Below, one piece after another: positions 1-64,000 of a DNA stretch of 64,000 nucleotides. The notes under the pieces are model-generated. The model made no database searches. It was given only the letters and a program-made list of their open reading frames with translations, and was not told the origin of the DNA. The stretch's first letter is position 1. Each line of letters opens with the position of its first letter. A program made the translations under genes and the position numbers. Origin of the DNA: Cetorhinus maximus (lineage: Eukaryota); contig NC_135901.1 in NCBI RefSeq assembly GCF_964194155.1, positions 36,580,001 through 36,644,000 of the forward strand, read 5' to 3'.

Positions 1-99
1 TTTAATTAGAGGAAATTTCAGCTTATCCAGTACTGGATGTGGGATAAGCAGTTTGATAATTTAGTAACAGTGGAGGAATGGAGAGGGATGGTGGTGAGG

Positions 100-286
100 T
101 TCCTTCACTGTCACTGGGTCAAAATCCTGGAACTCCCTCACTAACAGCACTGTGGGTGCACCTACACCACATGGACTGCAGCAATTCAAGAAGACAGCTC
201 ATCACCAACTTCTCAAGGGCAATTAAGGATGGGCAATAAATGCTGGCCCAGCCAGCGAAGCCCACATCCCGTGAATGAATAAAAAG
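100..286 (+). repeat. LINE 3'-end repeat with (TGAA)n/A tail; copies at 14570-14870 (-), 46438-46625 and 52165-52420
   Basis: Recurrent gggcaattagggatgggcaataaatgctggcc...gaatgaataaaaa. Confidence 0.7.
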
Positions 287-514
287 CAAGGAAGAGCTGG
301 ACATTGTCAGTGCACATGTGAAAACTAATGTGGAGCTTCAGGATGATGTTGCCTCGTGGCAACATGTAGATGAGAAATAGGAGGGGCCAAGGATAGATCC
401 TTGGGTTCACCAAGTTCAATGGCTTTGGAGAGGAAAGGGAGGTTGGCGATGGGGCAGTAGTTCTTTCTTCATCTTTCATGAAATCCACTTTTAAACCTGT
501 GTCCTCATTGGCAG

Positions 515-1348
515 TCTGTGGAAATTGTAACATTGAGGGTACATAATGTTCCCATGCTTGTTGTATAGGTTCCTGACTCGTAACAAGGGTGGGACCTTCT
601 TGTATTGGCTGTGATAGGGTCACCAGGTCAGTTCAAACATCAGTGAACCACAGTTTGGAGGCAGCCAGTTTCAGGGAGTCAGCCAGCAGGTGTGACAGAG
701 ACAGGCAGAGGTCCCAGTTAAGTTAAAGAAAGAGCCAAGCGGAGCAGATTTTAAAGAGGACCATTGGAGTAAAGATACCTCTTTGGAGCAGTGATGTTCT
801 GCTTGGCCTGGCCTAAGACCTGAAAGTGTGCTTGGAAGGTGAAACTTGAGGTTACTCGGCAATCCAGGGGAATCTCAGAAAGCAGGGTTGAAACCCTGTG
901 AGCTGAGTCATTGTTGAAGCTGACAGAGTTGGGAGTGACTTTGGAAAGAATTCCAAGGAGAAATCTTCAAAAGTGGTGATTTGAAACCCTCGTGACAAAG
1001 GCGAAGTTTCAGTGAGATTGGTTGGCTCACAATGTGGGCCATTGTGGGTTGTTGAGAAATCCATGGAATCTGTTTTGGTTGCATCTGTCATTTACTCTAT
1101 AGCATTGTGGGTCCGACTACAGGTCATGTTAATTCACACGTACCTCACACTTACACTGAATGTTAGAGTATAAGGTAGTTCTTGTAAACTATTTTATGTT
1201 TTTAGAACTTGTAAAATTTGCTTTGTTTTCTGTTTAAAAACCCTTGTAATCTTGTAGCTTTATTCTAAAAGCAGGTGTCTTGAATGTCAAACTTTTGACT
1301 AATACTTTAAGCAAAATGTTATTGGTCCCTAATGGATCCTACCATCAT
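515..1348 (+). mobile_element. Putative solo LTR; second copy at about 46858-47678
   Basis: About 830 bp of non-coding sequence between L2 remnants, beginning TGT, with LTR-like composition. No target-site duplication was confirmed. Confidence 0.35.
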
Positions 1349-1379
1349 CATCTTGGAGAGCGGTGGTGGGGGTGGGGGA

Positions 1380-2020
1380 GGGGGGTGCAGTGGGTGATGT
1401 GGAGGGGATTCTGGCTAAGGAAGGTAAAGACTTGTGAAAGCTAACACGGTGCTTTTGGATGATGCCACCGAGCGGCAGCATGCAGAGGAGAATGGGAGGG
1501 GCCAAGGATGGACCCTTGAGGGACTCCAAGTACAAGGGCTTTGGAGAGGAAACGGAGGTTGGTGATGGGGGGTCTAGCTTTCAAAGATGGTGGGGGTCAA
1601 GGATTGTCCATTTTTAGGATGGGTGCTCACAGTGGATTGCAAGGCAAGATGGACAGTGCCAGAAGAGAGAGAGAACTGTTAACAATATCAGCTAACAGGC
1701 AGAAGTTGGATGGTCAGCAGTTTAGTGAGAATAAGGTCAAGGGAGCAGAAGGTGGGTCTCATGGACAAGATGAGCACTGAGGGGACGTGAGGGGAGGTGG
1801 GATAGAAATTGGAGAAAGATGTAGGTTCAGGGCTCAGTCAAGGGGGAATTTTTGAGACTGTTTATCCCGGTGGGCTAGTGGAAGGGAGGGATGCAGCAGA
1901 GGCAGCTGATCGGATTGTCTAAATCTTAGTGACAAAGAAGCTCCATGAGCTCCTCACACTTGTTGGAGGTGAGGATGGAGGAGACAGAGGAGAAGGAGAG
2001 CCCTTCAAAAGTAACTAATT
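1380..2020 (-). mobile_element. L2 remnant behind ZNF 3' flank; equivalents at 33130-33630, 47720-48330 and 14480-14960
   Basis: Shared SWSFFVTKIETIRSAAS block immediately downstream of each subfamily-A ZNF. Confidence 0.75.
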
Positions 2021-2218
2021 GTGTTCAACATTAAAAGATTCAACACATCGTGTTGTTAAAAAGACTTAACATATTGTGTATTTAACACAAAGATGAATTA
2101 TTTCACTTTATCCAGAATATTAACATCTGTAACTGGGCTGGAGTTTAGTAACATCAGCAGAAACAGACCCCAATGAACATGGTTCAGTCCTCGATGTTAT
2201 TAACAGCAACACCTGTAG

Positions 2219-3329
2219 TTACTTGTGAACTCACTGGTGTTTCTGCAGAGTGGATAACTGAGTGCATCCCTTCCCTCATACAGAGCAGGTGAATGGTCTC
2301 TCCCCTGTGTGAATGCGCTGGTGTACAGTGAGGTTAGATGATGTCTTGACCTCAGTCCCACAGTAAGAGCACCTGAAAGTTTTCTCGTCAGTATGAACTC
2401 GCTGGTGTACAATGAGGTCAGCTGATCATCTGAACCGGGTCCCACAGTGAGAACACCTGAATGCTTTCTTGTCAGTGTGAACACGTTGATGGTATATCAG
2501 TTCCTGGGAACTTTTAAAACACTTCCCACAGTCGGGGGATTTAAAAAGTCTCTCACCAGTGTGAACCCGCTGGTGTGTCAGCAGGTGGGAAGACTGAGTG
2601 AATCTCTTCCTACACATAGAGCACCTGAATGGTCTCTCCCCAGTGTGTATTCGCTGATGTACAGAGAGTTGAGATAATTGCCTGAACCCAGTGCCGCAGT
2701 CAGAGCACCTGAACGGTCTCTCATCAGTGTGAGCACGTTGATGGAACGTCAGTTTGCTGGAGCTTTTATGGCACTTCCCGCAGTCTGGGCATTTAAAGAC
2801 TCTCGTCAGTGTGAACGAGCTGGTGTGTCAGCAGGTCAGTTGACTGAGAGAATCGCTTTCCACAATCGGCACATGTGAATGATCTCACCCCGGTGTGAGT
2901 TTCCATCAAGGCGGATGACTGAGTGAATCCCTTCCCACAGTCAGAACAGGTGAATGGTCTCTCCCCAGTGTGAACTCGCTGGTGTTTTAGCAGGTTGGAT
3001 GAATTAATGAATCCCTTCCCACACTCGGGGCAGGTGAATGGCCTCTCCCCGGTGTGAATTCGTTGGTGTGTGAGCAGGTCCATTGAATTAATGAATCCTT
3101 TCCTGCACTCGGAGCAGGTGAACGGCCTCTTCCCGATGTGACTGCCCCAATGTGTTTCCAGCTGAATTGGATTATTGAATCACTTCCCACAATCCCTACA
3201 TTTCCATGGATTCTCCCTGTTGTCCCTGCATTTATGTTTTGACAGGTCAGATGATCGGCTGAAGCCTCGTCCACACACAGAACACATGTACCGTTTCTCC
3301 CCACTGTGAACGGTGCTTTTTCCTTCCAT
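2219..3329 (-). pseudogene. C2H2 zinc-finger pseudogene, direct paralog of the gene at 48526-49731
   Basis: Finger fragments lie in several frames (ORFs 3180-3377, 2793-3083, 2426-2617) with a TGA after WKCRDCGK. The finger sequences nearly match the 48526 gene but carry deletions and frameshifts. The upstream acceptor AG is missing. Confidence 0.9.
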
Positions 3330-31099: not shown

Positions 31100-32720
31100 G
31101 ATTATGCACTAAGGGAGGTTATGATGTTGTCATTCTTAAGTAGATCATGAGGTAGAAAGTTGAAATATAACACATAAACTAAACAGATAGAAAGAGCACA
31201 CGACTCCTGGATTGTAAGAGCAGTTTACCGCTCCCAGAGGATGAACAAATGGGTGACACAGGCAGAATATTGGTCTCTGTTGCCAATGGGTGGGGGAAGC
31301 AGCCCCTCCTACTTTCTTAACTGAAGTGTTGGGAAGTTTTTCTCCAGTCGCCTTCTGTTTGACGGAGGCTGCCCAGCGTGGATCACTTCAAACATCTCTT
31401 TTCTGTCCCGAGTGATTGTTTTCCTCTTGAGAGCCTGTTTTTAACCTGTTCTCAGATGGTTAGTTTACGTGTGGGTTATGAGATTCTCTCAGGAATGTCT
31501 GTGCTGGAGATATGTGCTTGGCCTGTCCTGTGTTTTTCAATCTGTAAACTGCTGTTGGAATTTTCTTCACATGGAATATATTGAATATTAATGAGATCTT
31601 AAGATTTTAGACATCATTATAGAGCAATTTTCTTACAGATCTCCCCAGCTTGAGTGAGGAAAAATCCTGACTGAGTTTTCACAACTGATTTCTGACTAAT
31701 CTCGCTATTTCTAAGCTACAAGCTTGTTTTCCTCATTTCTTGTTGATATATCGTAGGTAACACAATAAAGTTCCCAGAATAATCTGATCGCCATCAACTT
31801 GAATTGGCATTCCTCACATACAGATCACCTCTTTCAATTATATTCCTTATCCTTTTGCAGCAGTGCTCCTGATTCTAAATTATTAAAGCAACAGATCCTG
31901 CATGGACTTAAAAGATTCTCCAGTTTTCCCTTCACCTGCATCCACCTTGTGGATAATTCTTATTAAGTATTATTTCTCCTTGGCCTTCAACCAACCCCAC
32001 CCAAATCCCCTTTACTTTCATGTTGCTCCTTCTGACAATTGCCAGTGTGTTTAGTTCTATCTTGATTGTTTTAGAGTCAGTTACTCCACAGTCTATGTGT
32101 CAATGCCTTAATGATTTAGAAATGTTGACTCACTCTGCTGCCCACGGTAATCACTTTATGTTAATATAAAAGCAAAAAACTGCGGCTGCTGGAAATCCAA
32201 AACAAAAATAAAAATATCTGGAAAAACTCAGCAGGTCTGATAGCATCTGCGGAGAGGAATACAGTTAATGTTTCGAGTCCGTATGACTCTTCAACTGAAC
32301 TGTACGTTGTTCTGTTGTCGAATAGCTGAGCATGTTTGAGACCCATTCTTTACTGCAGGTTCAACATGCATTTCCACACGTTAATTATTTCACACATGAC
32401 AAATCTGCATACTCACACCAGTACGCCAACATCATGGCACACACTCTATCTGATAAAAGCTGTTGTTAGTCTTTCAGGCGATCTTATCAGAAGGTCAAAC
32501 TGGGTCTTTGTCAAAATATCTTCACTTTACCCCCACTGCATTGGTCTGCAGTAGTGGCCAGACTATCAAATGCATCCACTAAAACAGTTCATAAACAAAG
32601 ATACAAATATCTCCAGAAGCTATCAAGTTAAGAGCCTCCACTGCACTTTCCGTTCACGAGAATGGACAGTGATACCAGCTTGATATATTCCATTGAACTA
32701 CATCAAAGGTGAAGGAAAAT
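31100..32720 (-). mobile_element. LTR-retroelement/ERV relic copy A: env-like 3' end plus putative 3' LTR
   Basis: Minus strand reads IILGTLLCYLRYINKK*GKQACSLEIARLVRNQL* (stop 31679-31681), then GGGGAGA and TGTAAG at 31637. Confidence 0.5.
32165..32302 (-). mobile_element. Short Penelope terminus inserted in the env-like relic
   Basis: Same terminal motif with a decayed hammerhead at 32263-32301. Absent from the paralogous position near 39775. Confidence 0.7.
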
Positions 32721-38856: not shown

Positions 38857-39099
38857 GTGACATCATCCAAAAAGCACTGTGTTAGTTTTCACATGTAAAC
38901 TGACAACACCCAGCTCTACCTCACCACCATCCCTCTCCATTTCTCCACTGTTACTAAATTATCAAATTGCTTATCCAACATTCCATACAGGGTGAGCAGA
39001 AATTTGCTCCTTTTAAGAATTGGGAAGATCAAAGCCATTGTCTTTGGTCACCACTACAAATTCCGTTCCCTAACTACCCAGTCTATCCCTATGGGGTAA

Positions 39100-41010
39100 C
39101 ATTGGGATATGCTGTCCTATGTTTGACAAGCCAGGAATCTTTATTCCTAAGCAAGAGGGAGAGAGCTATTCCTATAATATTCAATACATTTCTACAGATT
39201 TTATAAGGTTATTAGACAGCGATTTCTTACGGATTTCCCCAGCTTGAGAAGGGAAAATCCTTATTGATTTCTCACAGCTGATTTCTGACTAACCTCACTA
39301 TTTCTAAACTCTGAGCTTGTTTTCCTAATTTCTTGATGACAAACCGTAGATAACATACTAAAGCTATGACAATTATCAGAATCAGCAACACAAACACTTG
39401 ACCTGCCACCAAGAATAATTGCAAAACATTTCCACTAAAATGTGATAACTATCGACTTCAATTCATCCTCCCCACCTGTTGATCATCTCACACAATTCTA
39501 AATTATTGGCATGTCGTAAATACATCTGGTTCAAACAAAAGTTCATGCATGGACTTTAAAGATTCCCCAGCTCTCTGTTCACTTGCATTCACCTTGTGGA
39601 TATTTTCTAAATCCAGATTCTATTTCCCTCTTCACTTTAATTTTAATCTCTCTGATAGATATGAGTGTGTTTAATTCAGTGCTGATTGTTTTATGGTTAG
39701 TTTCACGATGGAGTATATGTTAATGTCCTGATGATTTAAAATGCTTCATTCAATTTTCCACAATAATCACTTCATGTTGTTCTGTTGTCAAGTAGCTGAG
39801 CACATCTGGGACCTGCTCTTCAGTGCAGGGTCACCATGCATTTCCACATGTTAATTACACCACATGTAACATATCACATCTGCACATTCACACCAGTATC
39901 CCAATATCATGCATGTGCAAACCTGTGCAAGTCACTCTTGGCCTTTCAGGTGATCTTATCAAAATATCAATGGGGTGTCTGTCTGAAGATCTTTGCTGAT
40001 CTAACCCTGCATGGTTATGATGCCTTGGATAGTGGCCAGACTATCAAATTCAGTTTCTTTTAAATACAGAGGCAAGGACACAAACATCACTAAAAGAAAT
40101 CTCTGTTTACTGGTCTCAACTACACTTTCCTGACTTTCACTAGAATGTACAAGTATAACAGATTGAACTATTCCGCTGAACTATACCCAGGTGAATTATT
40201 CCATTTCCCAATCAGTGGTGTGATTTTCTCTATCTTTTATTCTAAATATGTCATTCCATGAATTACTATTCTATCTCATTCAGGAGAGCTGGAGGAACTT
40301 TACTGTCCCACTTAATACTCACATAATATGGTGTTTGTAGATCAGAGACAGAAGTACAGGTACTTGCAATCAGATTGCAAATCACTCCCATATCTTCCAT
40401 TCTCAGACACTTTGTCTTGAACAATAACAAATGGGATGAAGTCAAATCTTTAAAAAGCAAAGCCTTTTGTTTAAATTGTCACCGTGCTGTCAGTGGAAAG
40501 GGTTAACTTCTCAGCTTGTTAGCAAAGGGGCTGAAGAAACATTCTCAAAATGTGCACACTTTGTGTCAACTTTATGTAACTTCATTTTCAGATCAAGGAT
40601 GAACCAAAACCCATTTCAATCTTTGATTTTCCAATTGTATTTGTATTTTTCTCAGCTTTTCACAAATGTTTTTTTTCTTCTTTCTTCAGGCACCTTTCCA
40701 AATGACGGTAATAAAACTGAAGAAAAATAAAACTGAAAAAGTTCACTTTCACAGGCAAAAGGAGCTCCAGTCTTCCGAGACTGAAAAGAGTTAAAGAGGG
40801 TGGAGCTTCCCACAGCTTGTGAGCTCCAGATTATAACCTCAAGGCTGAAGCTTATCTTTAGGGAATCCAACTTTTCGATGCCTTTTACAATTGTATAAGT
40901 TCATTGTGATTCATACTTAAAGGTTTACTTTCACTCAGTCATTATAACCTTTCACTTTTCTCAGCACAGAAGCTGGCAGCATTTTAGATTAAATCCCAAT
41001 TGTACACTTC
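39100..41010 (-). mobile_element. LTR-retroelement/ERV relic copy B: env-like
   Basis: Decayed reading frame with FLLVMFVSLPLY and a TM segment LFLVAGQVFVLLILIIVIALVCYL followed by RFVIKKLGKQ...RNQL* (stop 39272-39274). Confidence 0.55.
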
Positions 41011-41011
41011 T

Positions 41012-41960
41012 CTTGTAGCTGGCGAATGGAGAAGATCATGTCCACTGTAGATCTGCCAGCACAGAAACCGCACTGTGCTTCTGGATACACTCGGTCTGCA
41101 AGTAGATGGAGTCTTTTAAGCCTGACCCTAGTGAAGGACATACCTGTGATGCTGAGGATTGAGATGTCCCTGTAGTTGTTGCAATCTCCTCTGTCACCTT
41201 TTTGTATATTGTGATCATTCTTCAGTCACACACGTGTCCTGTGGAAAGGATCCAACATCCCAACAGAGGATGTGGTGGTCATAAAGGTGTGACAGTAGAT
41301 GGGATTTTCCAGGCTTGAGCAGTTCAGCTGGAATTCCATCTTTGCTGGGTGTCTTTCTGCTTGCTAAGCAATTAATGGCCTTTTTGAGCTCAAGTGGTGA
41401 GGGTTCCTCATCCAATTCAACCATGACAGGAAGCTGCAGGAGAGAGTCAAACGGAGACTGGGAGATGTCTGTCTCATGGGAGTACAGCTCACAGTAAAGT
41501 TCAACCCAGTGGAACATCTGTTTACATCTGTCAATGAGAACTTCACCATCCATTTGGTGATGGTCGGACCAAGCGCCCTCCTGATCCCATCATACACAGC
41601 ACGTAGATTTCTGTTGTCACAGGCAGTTTGGATTTCTTGATGTGGGCTGATCCAGTGTTTATTTGCACAGTATCTCCCTGTCTTTTACACAAATGTGTCA
41701 GCTACTTTCAAGTTACACAGTGTTCCAGCTGTTGGGTTTATGTTGTAATCAGGTCGGCTTTGCTTTTTGTTTCAATGACAGATTCATCTCTGCTGACCAG
41801 TCTTTGTTGTGGGTTCCACCTTTACCAAATGTTGCTGCTGCTGTGTCAGAAATGATTGAACTCAGCAACTTCCAAGATTCAGCAATATCAATGTTGACTG
41901 ATGAAGCTTTTATTGATGAGCCTGTAAAATATTTTACTGTTTTGTTATCTTCCTTGATAA
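41012..41960 (-). mobile_element. RTE-clade LINE ORF2 fragment
   Basis: ELDEEPSPLELKKAINCLASRKTPSKDGIPAELLK is a LINE pre-RT motif. Inverted paralog of 61710-62696. Confidence 0.8.
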
Positions 41961-42363
41961 ATTAATTTCATCACGGAGGTGTCACTGTGAGTAATATGCA
42001 AGTCAGTAAGAATTGTCAGAACGGATTAATCAGCACTTTCTAATTGGAGATGTTAATCAGTGGAACCACTCAGACACTGAATTGGCGACTTTGCTCCAAA
42101 GGTCAATTTAGGATTGAAGTGAAAATTCATAATTTTATTGTAATCTATTTCCTGTTGAGAGTTCTTGAATTAAGAGGAAAGATCACAAATGGTGTTTTTA
42201 AAAAGGGACACTGCAGCTCAGATAATCAGTGACAGATCCAGAATATTAAACTCCAGCCAGTTATAGGGTTGTTAATATCAGCAGAATCAAAGGTAATACT
42301 ATCTGACTATCAGTCCTGGATGTGACTAACAGCAGCAATAACAGCGAAATCCAATCCTTGCAG

Positions 42364-43038
42364 TCACATGTGAATTTGCTGGTGTGACAGCAGGTTGGCT
42401 GACTGAGTGAATCCCTTCCCCCACACAGTGCAGGTGAATGGCCTCTCCCCAGTGTGAACTCTCTTGTGTACTTTAAGATTAGATGGAGACCTGAACCTCT
42501 TTCCACACGAAGTGCAGCTGAATGGCTTCTCCCCAGTGTGAATTTGCTGGTGTGACTGAATGCTGGCTGACTGAGTGAATCCCTTCGCACACACAGAGCA
42601 GGTGAATGGTTTCTCCCCCGTGTGAACTCGCTGGTGTGCAGTGAGGTTGGAGGAATGCCTGAACCTCTTTCCACAGGAACTGCAGCTGAACGGCCTCTCC
42701 TCAGTGTGAATTTACTGGTGTTTTAGCAGGTTGGAGGACACAGTGAATCCCTTCCCACACACGGAGCAGGCGAATGGCCTCTCCCCAGTGTGAAATCGCT
42801 GGTGTCCACTCAGGTGGGATGAAGACCTGAACCTCTTACCACAGTAAGTGCAGCTGAAGGGCCTCTCCCCAGTGTGACCTCGCTGATGTGTCAGCAGAGT
42901 GGATGACTGAGTAAATCCCTTGCCACACACGGAGCAGGTGAACGGCTTCTTTCCAGTCTGAATACGTCGATTGCTTCTCAGCAGAGATGGATAATTGAAT
43001 CCTTTCCCACAGTCCCCACATTTCCACGGTTTCACCAT
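42364..43038 (-). pseudogene. C2H2 ZNF (subfamily B), about 8 fingers, one internal stop
   Basis: ORFs 42712-43038 and 42364-42594 share a frame and are separated by TAA at 42712-42714. The first finger lacks its His residues. More decayed fingers lie upstream at 43040-43340. Confidence 0.82.
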
Positions 43039-43879
43039 GGTGCTGGCCCCAATGTGAGTGCGTCAATGAATTTCCAGCTGGGGTGGATGACTGAATAGCT
43101 TCACACCATTCTCACATTTTCTCATCCACACACAGAACACGTGTACAGTTTCTCCCCACTGTGAATGATGCAATGTTTCTTCAGGCTGTGTAACTGGTTA
43201 AAGCTCTTTCTGCAGTGAGTTCACTGGAACACTCTCACTCAGGTGTGTGTGCGTCTCAGTGCTTTCCCAGTCACACTGATGTTTGAAATCTTTTCCCACA
43301 GACAGAACAGTCAAACATTTCTCCTTCCACATTCAAAGGCCGATGATGTTCAGGTCCTGATGAATCGAGTGACTGTCCGATCTTGATGTGATGTTTGGTT
43401 TGAGTTTCCCATCTACAAATCTTAGTACATCATGATGTTTGGATCTGAAAATCCTTCCCTTCTAATACCCTGTAAAAGAGGTTAACAAAAGTAATCACTG
43501 TCAGTCCAGCATGGAAATTAATAATTGACAAATCCAGTTACTATGGCATATTTCTTCCTCTCGTCTTCCCTCCCCACCCCCCTCCCGCCCCAAGCTGTAA
43601 ATCACAGTGTCACAAACTCTCTCTCCTCCGTGTGATGAAATCCAAACCCATCATACAATCTCCACCAATTCTTTGTTCCTCCTAGTTTTCTATCTCCCTC
43701 TGTTCTGGCTGGGTTCAGTTCTACAACCCCCCTGTAAAAGGAGTTTAAAAGCCATCACTGTCAGTCCAAGATTAGAAATTGAGAACAGACAAACATTTCT
43801 CTTGGTTTGAGTTTGAGCTGGATTCCAAAATCCATCCCTGTCAGTCCAGGATAGAAATTCACAACATTCTCTCCTCCTG

Positions 43880-44460: not shown

Positions 44461-47400
44461 GAAGATAGAGCATGTTCATGGTCTCGGTGCATGCTGGGTA
44501 ATGTTACCGCCATTGAGGGGAAACACAGTTGAATACAGAATCACATTTTGTGATCCGATTTGGATTGGAGGCGCAGAGGTAAAATCATTAAGTTAATTTA
44601 TACAGCAGCCAAGTGCACGGGAGGGGAACCTGTCCCCTGGTCCGTGTCCCAATGTGATGAGTGAGAGGAATGGGCAGGGTGATGAAGAACGTTTTTACAC
44701 ATCTGTTCCCTCTCTTCCCTTCATCCGTTACACTGGGTGTCACTATCACATGGGCGATTGCAGTATTTTCCCAATCTTCCTTAACACCGGGGTCTTTGCT
44801 ACTGGGTGTTCATTGTCCATCCATGTCACTCCCCATTTTCCGACCCATTAAATTTATACCATTGTATGGATTAAAGAGGATCGACCAAAACCTGCTATAT
44901 GTGCCAATCGCGTAGATATAAATAAACAATTTCCTCTGGTGGGGGAATCGAGAAAAAGGGGCCATCAACCTAAAGTTAGAACTTGTCCACTCACCAGTGC
45001 AATCAAACAGAAATCCTTCACACAATGTGGAGTAGAAATGTGGAACTCTCTCCAACAAAATGCGATGGATGGTGAGGGTCAATTGGAGTTTACAAGACTG
45101 AGATAGATAGATTTTTGTTCACTAAGTGTTTCACGGGATATGGAATGAAGGCGGGTAAATGAAGTTCTGATACAAATTAGCCCTCATCTATCTGAGTGGT
45201 GGAGCAGCTTTCAGGGGCGAATGCCCTCCTCCTGTTCCTAACAGTCCTGTGATTCACACAGAAATGTCCCAGAAGAGTGAAATCCCACTAGATCCCAGCA
45301 CATACTCAGCAGGAAGTCCAGATCAAGGACAAACCCAGTGTGTCCACTGAGTCCAGTTTGCTGCTCCCTCTGTGACCAGCACCATCTGCAGCACCTGCAC
45401 ACGGAAGTGGGATTTCAAAGGAAGGAAGGAACCTGTCAGCATTTGTAACATATTGACAAAGAATCCAAGGGCATCACGAGAGTTGGGATCTTTCTTTATT
45501 CTCGGGGATTTGGACATCAGACTTTGTCCTGCATGGTAGAGTTGGTATTATCTTTGAAAGAGCTGCCAATTAGTCCCACTCCCCTGCCCTTTTCCTCAGA
45601 ACCCTGCAAACTTTACCTTTTCATTAGAGATCCAATTTTATAAAGTTGCTGATGAATCTGCTTCCACATTTCAGGTAGTACATTCCAGATCATAACTCAC
45701 TGAGTAAATATTGTTTTCTCTTCTCCTCTCTGTATTTTTGCCAATTACTTGACATGATCTGTTTACTTTTCACCTTTTGTTAAACACATTTACTGAGTAG
45801 ATTCAGATTTAAACTTGAACCAGTTTTATAGGCATGATGTCCTATTTACACATCGAAGGTGGGAGAGAAGCTGTGGGGAACACACGATGGACATTTTAAA
45901 GAAATTAAGGAAATGCCACACTGTGTGTTTGAAACAAAGCTGATTTATTTGACACATATCACAACATGAAATTCCCACCATTATGTGGGCGGTCTTTGTT
46001 TTCTGCCACTCAGTCAGCTTTTCAGGCTGGAGGAAGGTTTGTAGTGGAGTTCCCCAGTGGTCAGTGTTGGGTCCCGTGCTTTTCCTGATGTATATTAATT
46101 ACCTAGATCTTGGTGTAAAGAGAAAAAGTCTAAAGGTAGCAAAGGAATGGTTTAAGCAGCAGATGAGCTGGGCTGGGTTGTAGCCAGGTGACATTGTGGA
46201 GATTGAAATATCTGGTATTAGTTATGGTGTGGATATGTGGTCAGAAACTCATCTTGTTGCGGGCAGTGTGATTCAGACTCAGACACTTCCCGGAGAGAGG
46301 GATGGACTCGGTAGTTAGGGAGCTGAATTTGTAGTGGTGACCGAAGACAATGGCTTTGGTCTTCCCAGTACTGGATGTGGGATAAGCAGTTTGATAATTT
46401 AGTAACAGTGGAGGAATGGAGAGGGATAGTGGTGAGGTTCCTTCACTGTCACTGGGTCAAACTCCTGGAACTCCCTCACTAACAGCATTGTGGGTGCACC
46501 TACACCACATGGACTGCAGCGGTTCAAGAAGGCAGCTCACCACCAGCTTCTCAAGGGCAATTAGGGATGGGCAATAAATGCTGGCCCAGCCAGACAAGCC
46601 CACATCCCATGAATGAATAAAAAGCAAGGTAGAGCTGGACATTGTCAGTGTACATGTGAAAACTAATGTGGAGCTTTAGGACGATGTCGCCTCGTGGCAA
46701 CATGTAGGTGAGAAATAGGAGGGGCCAAGGGTAGAACCTTGGGTTCACCAAGTTCAATGATTTTGGAGAGGGAGGTTGGCGATGGGGCAGTAGTTCTTTT
46801 TCGTCATCTATCATGAAATCCACTTTTAAACCTATGGCCCTGTGTCCTCAATTGGCAGTCTGTGGAAATTATAACATTGAGGGTACATAATGTTCCCATG
46901 CTTGTTGTATAGGTTCCTGACTCATAACAAGGGTGGGACCTTCTTGAATTGGCTGTGATAGGGTCACCAGGTCAGTTCAAACATCAGTGAACCACAGTTT
47001 GGAGGCTGCCAGTTTCAGGGAGTGAGTCAGCAGGTGTGACAGAGACAGGCAGAGGTCCCAGTTAAGTTAAAGAAAGATCCACGTGCAGCAGATTTTAAAG
47101 AGGGCCATTGGAGTAAAGGTACCTCTTTGGAGCAGTGATGTTCTGCTTGGCCTGGCCTAAGACCTGAAAGTGTGCTTGGAAGGTGAAGCTTGAGGTTACT
47201 CGGCAATCCAGGGGAATCTCAGAAAGCAGGGTTGAAACCCTGTGAGCTGAGTCATTGTTGAAGCTGTCCGAGTAGAGAGTGACTTTTCGAAAGAATTCCA
47301 AGGAGAAATCTTCAAAAGTGATGATTTGAAACCCTCGTGACAAAGCGAAGTTTCAGTGAGAAATGTGGGCCATTGTGGGTTGTTGAGAAATCCATGGAAT

Positions 47401-48525
47401 CTGTTTTGGTTGCATCTGTCATTTATTCTATAGCATTGTGGGTCCGACTACAGGTCACGTTAATTCACATGTACCTCACACTTACCCTGAATGTTAGAGT
47501 ATAAGGTAGTTCTTGTCAACTATTTTATGTTTTTAGAAGTTGTAAAATTTGCTTTTTTTTCTGTTTAAAAACCCTTGTAATCTTGTAGCTTTATTCTAAA
47601 AGCAGGTGTCTTGAATATCAAACTTATGACTTATACTTTAAGCAAAACGTTTTTGGTCCCTAAGTGGATCCTACCATCATCTCGGAGAGCGGGGGTGGGG
47701 AGGGGGGTGCGGTGGGTGATGTGGAGGGGGTTCTCACTAAGGAAGGTAAAGATTTGTGAAAGCTAACACGGTGCTTTTGGATGATGCCACCGAGCGGCAG
47801 CATGCAGAGGAGAATGGGAGGGGCCAAGGATAGATCCTTGAGGGACTCCAAGTACAAGGGCTTTGGAGAGGAAACGGAGGTTGGAGATGGGGGAGCGAGT
47901 TTGCAAAGATGGTGGGGGTCAAGGATTGTCCATTTTTAGGATGGGTGCTCACAGTGGATTTCAAGGCAAGAGGGACAGTGCCAGAAGAGAGAGAGAACCG
48001 TTAACAATATAAGCTAACAGGCAGAAGTTGGATGGTCAGCAGTTTAGTGAGAATCAGGTCAAGGGAGCAGAAGGTGGGTCTCATGGACAAGATGAGCACT
48101 GAGAGGAAGAGAAATTGGAGAAAGATGTAGGTTCAGGACTCAGACAAGGGGGAATTTTAGAGACAGTTTGCCCCGGTGGGCGAGTGGAAGGGAGGGAAGC
48201 AGCAGAGGCAGCTGATCGGATTGTCTCAATCTTAGTGACAGAGAAGCTCCATGAACTCCCCACACTTGTTGGGGGTGAGAATGGAGGAGACAGAGGAGAA
48301 GGAGAGCCCTTCAAAAGGAACTAACTTGTGTTAGACATTAAAAGATTCAACACATTGTGTTGTTAAAAAGACTTGACATACTGTGTGTTTAATATGAAGA
48401 TTATTTATTTGACTTTATCCAGAATATTAACATTTGTAACTGGGCTGGAGTTTAGTAACATCAGCAGAAACAGACCCCAGTGAACATGGTTCAGTCCTCG
48501 ATGTTACTAACAGCAACACCTGTAG

Positions 48526-49731
48526 TTACTTGTGAACCCGCTGGTGTTTCTGCAGAGTGGATAACTGAGTGCATCCCTTCCCACATACAGAGCAGGTGAA
48601 TGGTCTCTCCCCTGTGTGAATGCGCTGGTGTACAGTGAGGTTAGATGATGTCTTGAACCCAGTCCCACAGTGAGAACATCTGAACGGTTTCTCATCAGTG
48701 TGAACTCGCTGGTGTACAATGAGGTCAGCTGATCGCCTGAACCGGGTCCCGCAGTGAGAACACCTGAATGCTTTCTTGTCAGTGTGAACACGTTGATGGT
48801 ATTTCAGTTCCTGAGAACTTTTAAAACACTTCCCACAGTCGGGGCATTTAAAAAGTCTCTCATCAGTGTGAACCCGCTGGTGTGTCAGCAGGTGGGAAGA
48901 CTGAGTGAATCTCTTCATACACACAGAGCAGGTGAATGGTCTCTCCCCAGTGTGTATTCGCTGATGTACAGAGAGTTGAGATGATTGCCTGAACCCAGTC
49001 CCACAGTCAGAGCACCTGAACGGTCTCTCATCAGTGTGAATACGTTGATGGAACATCAGTTTGCTGGAACTTTTATAGCACTTCCCGCAGTCTGGGCATT
49101 TAAAAAGACTCTCGTCAGTGTGAACAAGCTGATGTGTCAGCAGGTCAGTTGACCGAGAGAATCGTTTTCCACAATCGGCACATGCGAATGATCTCACCCC
49201 GGTGTGAGTTTGCTGGTGTCTCATCAAGGTGGATGACTGAGTGAATCCCTTCCCACAGTCAGAACAGTTGAACGGTCTCTCCCCAGTGTGAACTCGCTGG
49301 TGTCTCAGCAGGTGGGGTGACTGTGTGAATCCTTTCCCACACTCAGGGCAGGAGAATGGTCTCTCCCCAGTGTGAACTCGCTGGTGTTTTAGCAAGTTGG
49401 ATGAATTAATGAACCCCTTCCCACACTCGAGGCAGGTGAATGGCCTCTCCCCGGTGTGAATTCGTTGGTGTGTGAGCAGGTCTGTTGAATTAATGAATCC
49501 CTTCCCACACTCGAGGCAGGTGAACGGCCTCGCCCCAGTGTGACTGCCCTGATGAGTTTCCAGCTGAATTGGATTATTGAATCCCTTCCCACAATCCTCA
49601 CATTTCCATGGTTTCTCCCTGTTGTCCCTGCATTTATGTTTTGACAGGCCAGATGATCGGCTGAAGCAGCGTCCACACACTGGACACGTGTACGGTTTCT
49701 CTCCACAGTGAACGGTGCTTTTTCCTTCCAT
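48526..49731 (-). CDS. Finger-only C2H2 zinc-finger protein, 14 fingers, 401 aa from MEGK
   Basis: Uninterrupted finger array. Acceptor module at about 49840-49900 and a CpG promoter at about 51060-51420. Confidence 0.93.
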
Positions 49732-62696: not shown

Positions 62697-64000
62697 ACAA
62701 TTGGGATTGAATCTAAAATGCTGCCAGCTTCTGTGCTGAGAAAAGTGAAAGGTTATAATTACTGAGTGAAAGTGAACCTTTAAGTATGAATTACAATGAA
62801 CTTGTACAATTGTAAAAGACATCGAAAAGTTTGATTCCCTAAAGCTAAGCTTCAGCCTTGAGGTTATGATCTGGAGCTCACAAGCTGTGGGAAGCTCCAC
62901 CCTCTTTAACTCTTTTCAGTCTTGGAAGGTTGAAGCTCCTTTTGCCTGTGAAAGTGAACTTTCTCAGTTCTATTTTTCTTCAGTTTTATTACCGTCATTT
63001 GGAAAGGAAGAAAGAAGAAAATAATAACATTTTGGAAAAGCTGAGAAAAATAACAAGAGACTTGGAAAAATAAAGATTGAAATGGGGTTTGGTTCATCCT
63101 TGCTCTGAAAATGAAGTTATATAAAGTTGACACAAGTGTGCACATTTGAGAATATTTCTTCAGCCCCTTTGCTAACAAGCTGAGAAGTTAACCCTTTCCA
63201 CTGAAGCATGGTGACAATTTAAACAAAAGGCTTTTCTTTATAAACATTTGGCTTCATCCCATTTGTTATTGTTCAGGACAAAGTGCCTGAGAACAGGAGA
63301 TATAGGAGTGATCTACAATCTGATTGCAAGTATCTGTACTTCTGTCTGTGATCTACAAACACCATATTATGTGAGTATTAAATGGGACAATATAGTTCCT
63401 CCAGCGCTCCTGAATGAGATAGAATAGTAATTCATGGAATGATGCATATAGAATAAAATATAGAGAAAATCACACCACCAGTTGGGAATTGGAATAATTC
63501 ACCTGGGTATAGTTCAATGGAATAGTTCAATCTAATGTACATGTACATTCTAGTTAAAGTCAGGAAAGAGTAGATGAGAACAGTAAACAGAGATTTCTCT
63601 TGGTGATGTTTGTGTCCTTGCCTCTGTATTTAAAAGAAACAGAATTTCATAGTCTGGCCACTATCCAAGGCATCAAAACAGTGCAGGGTTAGATCAGCAA
63701 AGATCTTCAGACAGACACCCCATTGATATTTTGATAAGATCACCTGAAAGGCCAAGAGTAGATTGCATAGGTTCGCACATGATATTGGGATACAGCGTGA
63801 GTGTGCAGATGTGATATGTTCCATGTGGTGTAATTAACATGTGGAAATGCATGGTGACCCTGTACTGAAGAACAGGTCCCAGACATGCTCAGCTACTTGA
63901 CAACAGAACAACATGAAGTGATTATTGTGGAAAATTGAATGAGACATTTAAATCATCAAGACATTAACACACACTCCATAGTGAAACTAATTATAAAGCA
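62697..64000 (+). mobile_element. LTR-retroelement/ERV relic copy C: env-like, runs off the window
   Basis: Inverted paralog of about 39690-41010 with the same peptide blocks. Confidence 0.55.

What the first reader, a model, noticed from the sequence alone, without database searches (positions are those of the whole stretch)
39100..41010. Hidden envelope/fusion-glycoprotein-like relic, three copies, with an LTR-like end
Seen: manual minus-strand translation gives a decayed frame of about 1.7 kb. It ends in a hydrophobic run (LFLVAGQVFVLLILIIVIALVCYL), a basic tail (RFVIKKLGKQAQSLEIVRLVRNQL*) and a short purine tract. The more diverged copy at 31679-32720 ends with the same RLVRNQL* followed by GGGGAGA-TC-TGTAAG. 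Upstream are scattered Cys, N-x-S/T sites and FLLVMFVSLPLY. Known: TM, tail, PPT and TG in that order is the 3' end of env-bearing retroelements, and lokiretrovirus Env is related to paramyxo/pneumovirus F proteins. Inference: LVMFVSLPLY recalls the pneumovirus F motif YVVQLPLY, so this may be a loki-like, foamy-like or env-carrying Gypsy element. The family is not established.
Basis: partly seen in the sequence, partly recalled or inferred. Interest (0 to 1): 0.75.

Follow-up and report, generated by a model that had tools for sequence, protein, structure and literature searches.

The report
Dead shark retrovirus with swapped envelope
This is the broken tail end of an old retrovirus relic repeated many times in a large, likely shark, genome; its family lacks the copying enzymes, likely borrowed them from a sister family, and carries a dead stretch that likely came from the envelope gene of a different virus group (lokiretroviruses) not yet reported in sharks.

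Summary
Real, and retroviral. Window 41003-39098 (-) is the 3' part of an old LTR element: env-like stretch, membrane anchor, tail, purine tract, LTR stub. Dispersed copies show LTR (TGTAAG..CTTACA, 782 bp), tRNA-Leu primer site, gag, protease, RT stub, this stretch, LTR; solo LTRs show 4-bp target duplications; LTR pairs differ by K2P 0.16-0.21. Gag was open in the amplifying ancestor; this stretch was already closed in all frames. A sister subfamily has full pol (RT, tether, second RNase H, integrase); its RT is class III-like (foamy best in PDB; snakehead retrovirus by eye) and it carries a different, F-like env. The window stretch shares only its last ~140 nt with that env and is AT-richer (37% vs 44-49% GC). 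No Pfam, PDB, database or fold search tied the stretch to a fusion protein; by eye it follows a collinear motif chain of published lokiretrovirus Env. Best reading: non-autonomous class III ERV whose pol and env were replaced by a dead, likely loki-type env piece. Two of the three window copies come from zinc-finger cluster duplication. The scan had not noted this before.

The parts
39375..41003 (-). AT-rich (36.8% GC) env-like stretch specific to the pol-less subfamily A; broken in all frames; likely foreign, loki-type env relic (its 5' few hundred bases may lie upstream of env)
   Evidence: motif comparison by eye
39272..39418 (-). Membrane anchor (39418-39347), basic tail and stop; 39374-39236 is shared at 68-73% with pol-bearing sister copies
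39234..39240 (-). Polypurine tract
39098..39231 (-). First ~130 bp of the 782-bp 3' LTR; the rest is lost at another repeat (39090-38845)
41004..41990 (-). LINE reverse-transcriptase fragment (RTE-like; label recalled, not tested) that cuts off gag/pro of this copy
31602..32713 (-). Copy 2: 76% identical, interrupted by a short repeat at 32162-32302; likely an independent insertion
62697..64000 (+). Copy 3: 92.6% identical, part of an inverted duplication 39687-42962 / 64000-60717 that also carries the LINE piece and a zinc-finger exon
42364..43062 (-). C2H2 zinc-finger array duplicated together with the relic

Best explanation
The stretch is the 3' remnant of an old, pol-less endogenous retrovirus family that likely spread by using the enzymes of a sister class III family, and whose own pol and env were likely replaced by a dead envelope piece from a lokiretrovirus-type virus. 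Shown: family anatomy (LTR, tRNA-Leu primer site, gag, protease, about 25 codons of RT, the stretch, anchor, tail, purine tract, LTR); gag open and the stretch closed in the common ancestor of the dispersed copies; a sister subfamily with full pol and another env; homology between the two breaks off after the RT start and resumes only in the anchor. Inferred: mobilisation in trans; capture by template switching with a crossover in the anchor-coding region; loki origin of the stretch. Later this copy lost its 5' part to a LINE and was multiplied with the zinc-finger cluster. It would have no present function.
For: Dispersed copies on many contigs at about 65-80% identity; 1550 LTR candidates, 40 scored. 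LTR ends and primer site; the primer site matches the 3' end of host tRNA genes with anticodon CAA. 4-bp target duplication exact in 3 of 9 solo LTRs, 3 of 4 bases in 4 more, poor in 2. LTR pairs K2P 0.161-0.205 in 5 of 5 measured. Shared-stop test: gag has a phase with 0 shared stops in 565 columns and 1 in 621; the env core has 13, 19 and 12 in 647. Of 20 loci, 7 continue into RT and 7 others carry the window-type core; none has both. Sister pol: RVT_1, RT_RNaseH, RNase_H (9e-11), Integrase_H2C2, rve; PDB best hits foamy Pol 81 bits, MLV 67, Ty3 64, HIV 33. Hand count on 56 printed RT residues: 30 identical with SnRV, 25 with Loki-Lca. Sister env links to L117 (3e-18) and L057 (1e-10); L057 hits PF00523 at 9e-5, below the curated cut-off. 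The window matches pol-bearing copies essentially only at 39374-39209 (6 of 11 copies; one 32-nt hit elsewhere); GC 0.37 vs 0.44-0.49. By eye, pieces of the stretch follow the order of motifs in lamprey and coelacanth loki Env, e.g. FN-x6-IHV with the same spacing, then IAF..LP, TPL, CG, LV(S/T)V..RG and NLD (against 91).
Against: No statistical match of the stretch to any fusion protein: Pfam, PDB (15, 35, 57), 5.8-billion set (36), 1.84-billion set (64, 68, 69: one same-family fragment and 12 hits to repeats, of which 2 were read), low-confidence fold (pTM 0.29). No match to the sister or younger env profiles beyond controls (top 3.7 bits vs 5.0 antisense and 4.2 shuffled; hhalign E 0.44-0.78). 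The longest run free of shared stops (156 nt) is about what AT-rich non-coding DNA would give (my estimate), so coding ancestry is not shown by that test. The motif chain was picked by eye after seeing the sequences. No RT tree could be built. Copy L047 holds 1.5 kb of sister-type env inside the stretch, so the history is more tangled than one swap. Trans-mobilisation is untested.
Confidence: 0.55

Rival explanations
1. Same non-autonomous class III element, but the stretch is this lineage's own env, diverged beyond detection from the sister's env; no capture from another virus group.
For: Right position between pol stub and anchor; anchor and tail shared; env diverges faster than gag, which is already only 64% identical between subfamilies; several weak best hits of the sister profile fall on the same profile region (positions 59-62 onward in 7 of 20 copies).
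Against: No blastn, tblastx or profile link over 1.6 kb while gag, protease and anchor align at 64-75%; sharp GC step; motif order fits loki Env better by eye.
Confidence: 0.2
2. Same element, but the stretch is captured non-coding AT-rich DNA and only the anchor and tail are envelope-derived.
For: Stop density and open runs like shuffled DNA; no database match at all.
Against: About nine collinear motif matches to loki Env with similar spacing, ending just before the anchor (by eye).
Confidence: 0.15
3. The whole family is a lokiretrovirus derivative like zebrafish Bhikhari (gag-only, non-autonomous).
For: Gag with N-terminal coiled coil (weak hits) and a capsid motif NFKSL(F/L)L also in Loki-Oja; dual RNase H; integrase end like loki.
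Against: Sister RT has the PQG motif and is closer to SnRV than to any printed loki RT, all of which have PFG-type motifs; Gag has a CCHC knuckle, whereas Bik-1 is described with a glycine-rich patch.
Confidence: 0.08
4. Env-carrying Ty3/Gypsy element (errantivirus-like).
For: 4-bp target duplication and F-type env also occur in such elements (for F-type env; target duplication recalled).
Against: Tether plus second RNase H; RT closer to foamy than to Ty3.
Confidence: 0.02

Closest known systems
SnRV-related class III ERVs (clade Huo, PMC6001957 passages; CmiERV lineage I of elephant shark, PMC4422223 part 1 of 2)
   Same: RT motifs of the sister subfamily, dual RNase H, gag-pro-pol-env order, cartilaginous-fish host (host inferred here)
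   Different: The window's subfamily lacks pol; its env-like stretch is unrelated to the sister env; an F-type env in this clade was not found in the papers seen
Lokiretroviruses (PMC7947760; main text parts 1-3 of 4, supplement parts 1, 67, 68 and searched passages)
   Same: Env motif order by eye; coiled-coil Gag with a shared capsid motif; dual RNase H
   Different: RT motif differs; their RT-based screen scored 0 of 6 chondrichthyan genomes
Bhikhari bik-1/bik-2 of zebrafish (PMC12067270, passages)
   Same: Non-autonomous LTR family that keeps only a working gag
   Different: Backbone here is class III-like, keeps protease, an RT stub and a dead env piece, is old and has no intact copy seen
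Foamy virus Env related to paramyxo/pneumovirus F (PMC11468914, search listing only)
   Same: F-type fusogens occur in spuma-related retroviruses, so an F-like env in a class III ERV is plausible
   Different: No foamy-specific feature was tested or seen here

Membership tests
LTR retroelement / ERV | Paired LTRs with TG..CA, primer site, purine tract, target duplication | tested here: met
Retroviridae-like (not Metaviridae) | Pol with tether plus second RNase H | tested here: met
   sister subfamily; the window's subfamily has lost pol
Class III, SnRV-related | RT groups with SnRV in a phylogeny | tested here: inconclusive
   PDB ranking and hand count agree; no labelled reference RTs were available for a tree
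Lokiretrovirus | RT in the loki clade | tested here: not met
   PQG motif and lower identity to loki RTs by eye; not a tree
Lokiretrovirus | Env similar to PF00523 / loki Env | tested here: inconclusive
   no Pfam hit for the stretch; by-eye motif chain only
Lokiretrovirus | Signal peptide, RxKR site, fusion peptide in Env | tested here: inconclusive
   not identified with confidence in the window-type stretch; a basic cleavage site and hydrophobic peptide are visible in the sister-type env
Env-carrying Ty3/Gypsy | Single RNase H, Ty3-like RT | tested here: not met
Class I F-type fusion protein | Fold match to paramyxo/pneumovirus F | tested here: inconclusive
   model pTM 0.29, not searched; profile searches negative
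Non-autonomous ERV | Many independent insertions share the same loss of pol | tested here: met
   two-LTR copies L060, L058+L059, L050, L047 show no pol
Host membrane protein gene | Conserved open frame, host database match | tested here: not met

The most novel reading that the evidence does not exclude
A lokiretrovirus-type virus once infected sharks, where RT screens found none, and left its F-type envelope gene inside a snakehead-retrovirus-like ERV: an envelope swap between the two deepest retroviral lineages, kept as a dead passenger in a gag-only family. The same genome also shows that SnRV-like ERVs carry their own F-type env.
Probability: 0.4. Interest if true: 0.7.

Novelty: new variant of a known kind. 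Interest (0 to 1): 0.45.

Why it matters
The loki paper leaves open how F-type env is distributed between lokiretroviruses and true retroviruses. An element joining a class III backbone to a loki-type env piece, beside a sister family with a different F-like env, would be direct evidence of env exchange across that divide and would extend loki-type env to cartilaginous fish. It also shows why RT-based screens miss such relics. The locus itself is dead DNA, which limits the interest.

Tried and rejected
Pfam on single frames of the window and of copies: nothing. PDB sequence searches with env profiles and the capsid profile: nothing. Protein database searches with env and gag alignments and with L057: nothing. 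Representative search: one same-family fragment. AlphaFold of the env piece (pTM 0.29) and capsid piece (pLDDT 48; fold search no match): uninformative. PF00523 genome search used a stricter first look and gave only L057. Alignments A2, A4-A7 were partly misaligned; A8 was used, while A1, A2 and A4 had been used. Phase tracking was noisy and was replaced. ARAGORN missed the intron-bearing tRNAs; Rfam found them. The Atlas search did not complete. My early recalled likeness to measles F was dropped as untested. Literature searches for a loki element or F-type ERV env in sharks found no report; subscription journals and bioRxiv supplements were not visible, and the loki supplement was cut at 300 of 318 pages.

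Full report
Setting. The window is G000:C24:36580001-36644000 in a 3.99-Gb genome and is a cluster of C2H2 zinc-finger arrays with many repeats.

Observation. The anchor, tail, purine tract and LTR-like start are present at the stated places, and the hydrophobic run exceeds 200 of 200 shuffles. There is no long frame: stop counts and open runs are like shuffled DNA. Copy 3 (92.6%) belongs to an inverted duplication that includes a LINE piece and a zinc-finger exon; copy 2 is 76% identical and likely separate. Of 40 scored DNA matches (1143 candidates), 36 are on C24, at 85-95% apart from the query itself, so the close copies are cluster duplicates.

Family. A protein search scored 150 of 799 candidates, spread over many contigs. 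Fetched copies give the order LTR, primer site, gag, protease, RT stub, window-type stretch, purine tract, LTR. The LTR is 782 bp with TGTAAG..CTTACA ends; the primer site matches the 3' end of three host tRNA genes with anticodon CAA. Solo LTRs show 4-bp duplications (3 of 9 exact, 4 with one mismatch, 2 poor). Five LTR pairs differ by K2P 0.161-0.205: 36-47 My at the mammalian rate, about ten times older at the shark rate assumed in PMC4422223; the age is uncalibrated. Gag shows weak coiled-coil and CCHC hits below cut-off.

What was alive when it spread. Counting stops shared by at least half of the aligned copies, gag has one phase with 0 in 565 columns (11 rows) and 1 in 621 columns (18 rows; likely the gag stop), while the env core has 13, 19 and 12 in 647 columns (21 rows). 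The amplifying element thus had an open gag and a dead env-like stretch, and no pol.

Sister subfamily. Of 20 further loci found through gag and protease, 7 run on into RT and 7 others carry the window-type core; none has both. Their pol has RT, an RNase H-like tether, a second RNase H and integrase domains. Their gag is 64% identical to that of the pol-less copies, and the LTR end and primer site are the same. The RT profile ranks foamy Pol first in the PDB (81 bits; caulimovirus-type 8r0s 73, label recalled; MLV 67; Ty3 64; HIV 33). Among the RTs printed in the loki supplement it is closest by eye to SnRV (30 of 56 identical in one stretch, against 25 for Loki-Lca). SnRV-like ERVs are known from elephant shark and across vertebrates. 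These copies have their own env of about 2.3 kb, which links to a younger ERV family and to L057; L057 hits PF00523 at 9e-5, below the curated cut-off. The sister env pieces themselves did not hit PF00523, so 'F-like' rests on this chain.

The stretch. It matches pol-bearing copies essentially only over its last ~140 bases, has 37% GC against 44-49% for the backbone, and shows no tblastx or profile link to the sister env. All database and fold tests were negative (see Tried and rejected). Read against loki Env proteins printed in the supplement, natural pieces of the copies show motifs in the same order and similar spacing, best with the lamprey protein; this is by eye, post hoc and without a statistic. 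One copy, L047, holds 1.5 kb of sister-type env inside the stretch, which shows that the two subfamilies recombined but complicates the history.

Mechanism. Likely: a class III provirus lost pol and most of its env in a recombination that brought in a foreign env piece, with the downstream crossover in the anchor-coding region; the piece decayed; the element kept gag and its cis signals and was copied in trans by the sister family, as described for gag-only Bhikhari and for complementation in trans generally. The window copy was later cut by a LINE and another repeat and multiplied with the zinc-finger cluster. The anatomy is shown; capture, donor and helper are inferred.

Comparison and novelty. 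It works like a non-autonomous ERV. It is not filed as a lokiretrovirus, since the RT feature was not met; the loki screen scored 0 of 6 chondrichthyan genomes by RT. Seven literature searches found no report of such an element. Papers seen: PMC7947760 (main text parts 1-3 of 4; supplement parts 1, 67, 68 and searched passages), PMC4422223 (part 1 of 2), passages of PMC13524379, PMC12067270, PMC11089739, 10.1101/2021.11.23.469661, PMC10435555, PMC13709493 and PMC6001957; PMC11468914 only as a search listing. Earlier scan look-ups showed nothing on this family.

Verdict. Real ERV relic, new variant of a known kind; interest 0.45, rising to 0.7 if the loki-type origin of the stretch is confirmed (probability about 0.4).

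Noticed in passing
L101-L108, L117-L120 (e.g. L117:6536-8482): A younger, high-copy ERV family (RT about 49% identical to the sister RT) with long open pol and env frames; its env links to the sister env and to L057, so it is likely F-like.
   Followed up: partly
L057:1498-2289 (G000:C20): 263-aa open env piece with a PF00523 hit (E 9e-5, below cut-off); a third related env type.
   Followed up: partly
L107:2950-4037 (G000:C27): Another ERV family with pol and an env ending in a similar Trp-rich region and anchor.
   Followed up: no
L088 and L090 (pol-bearing copies): Full pol but most of env deleted; L088 also has a short tandem repeat at the env start.
   Followed up: partly
L047:3830-5357: Pol-less copy carrying 1.5 kb of sister-type env inside the window-type stretch: a mosaic.
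   Followed up: partly
L050:3109: A TGA shared by 15 of 17 copies lies in frame between gag and protease, suggesting readthrough-type expression.
   Followed up: no
L021:8297-9245: An unrelated gamma-type env-like frame near one copy (label by eye).
   Followed up: no
window 27-3194 / 46365-49512 and other pairs: Repeated direct and inverted duplications of zinc-finger units across the window (up to 92% identity).
   Followed up: no
P0005: A 144-aa fragment of this same family sits in a metagenome protein set, likely host DNA.
   Followed up: no
L078-L080: Intron-containing tRNA genes with anticodon CAA, missed by ARAGORN and found by Rfam.
   Followed up: yes
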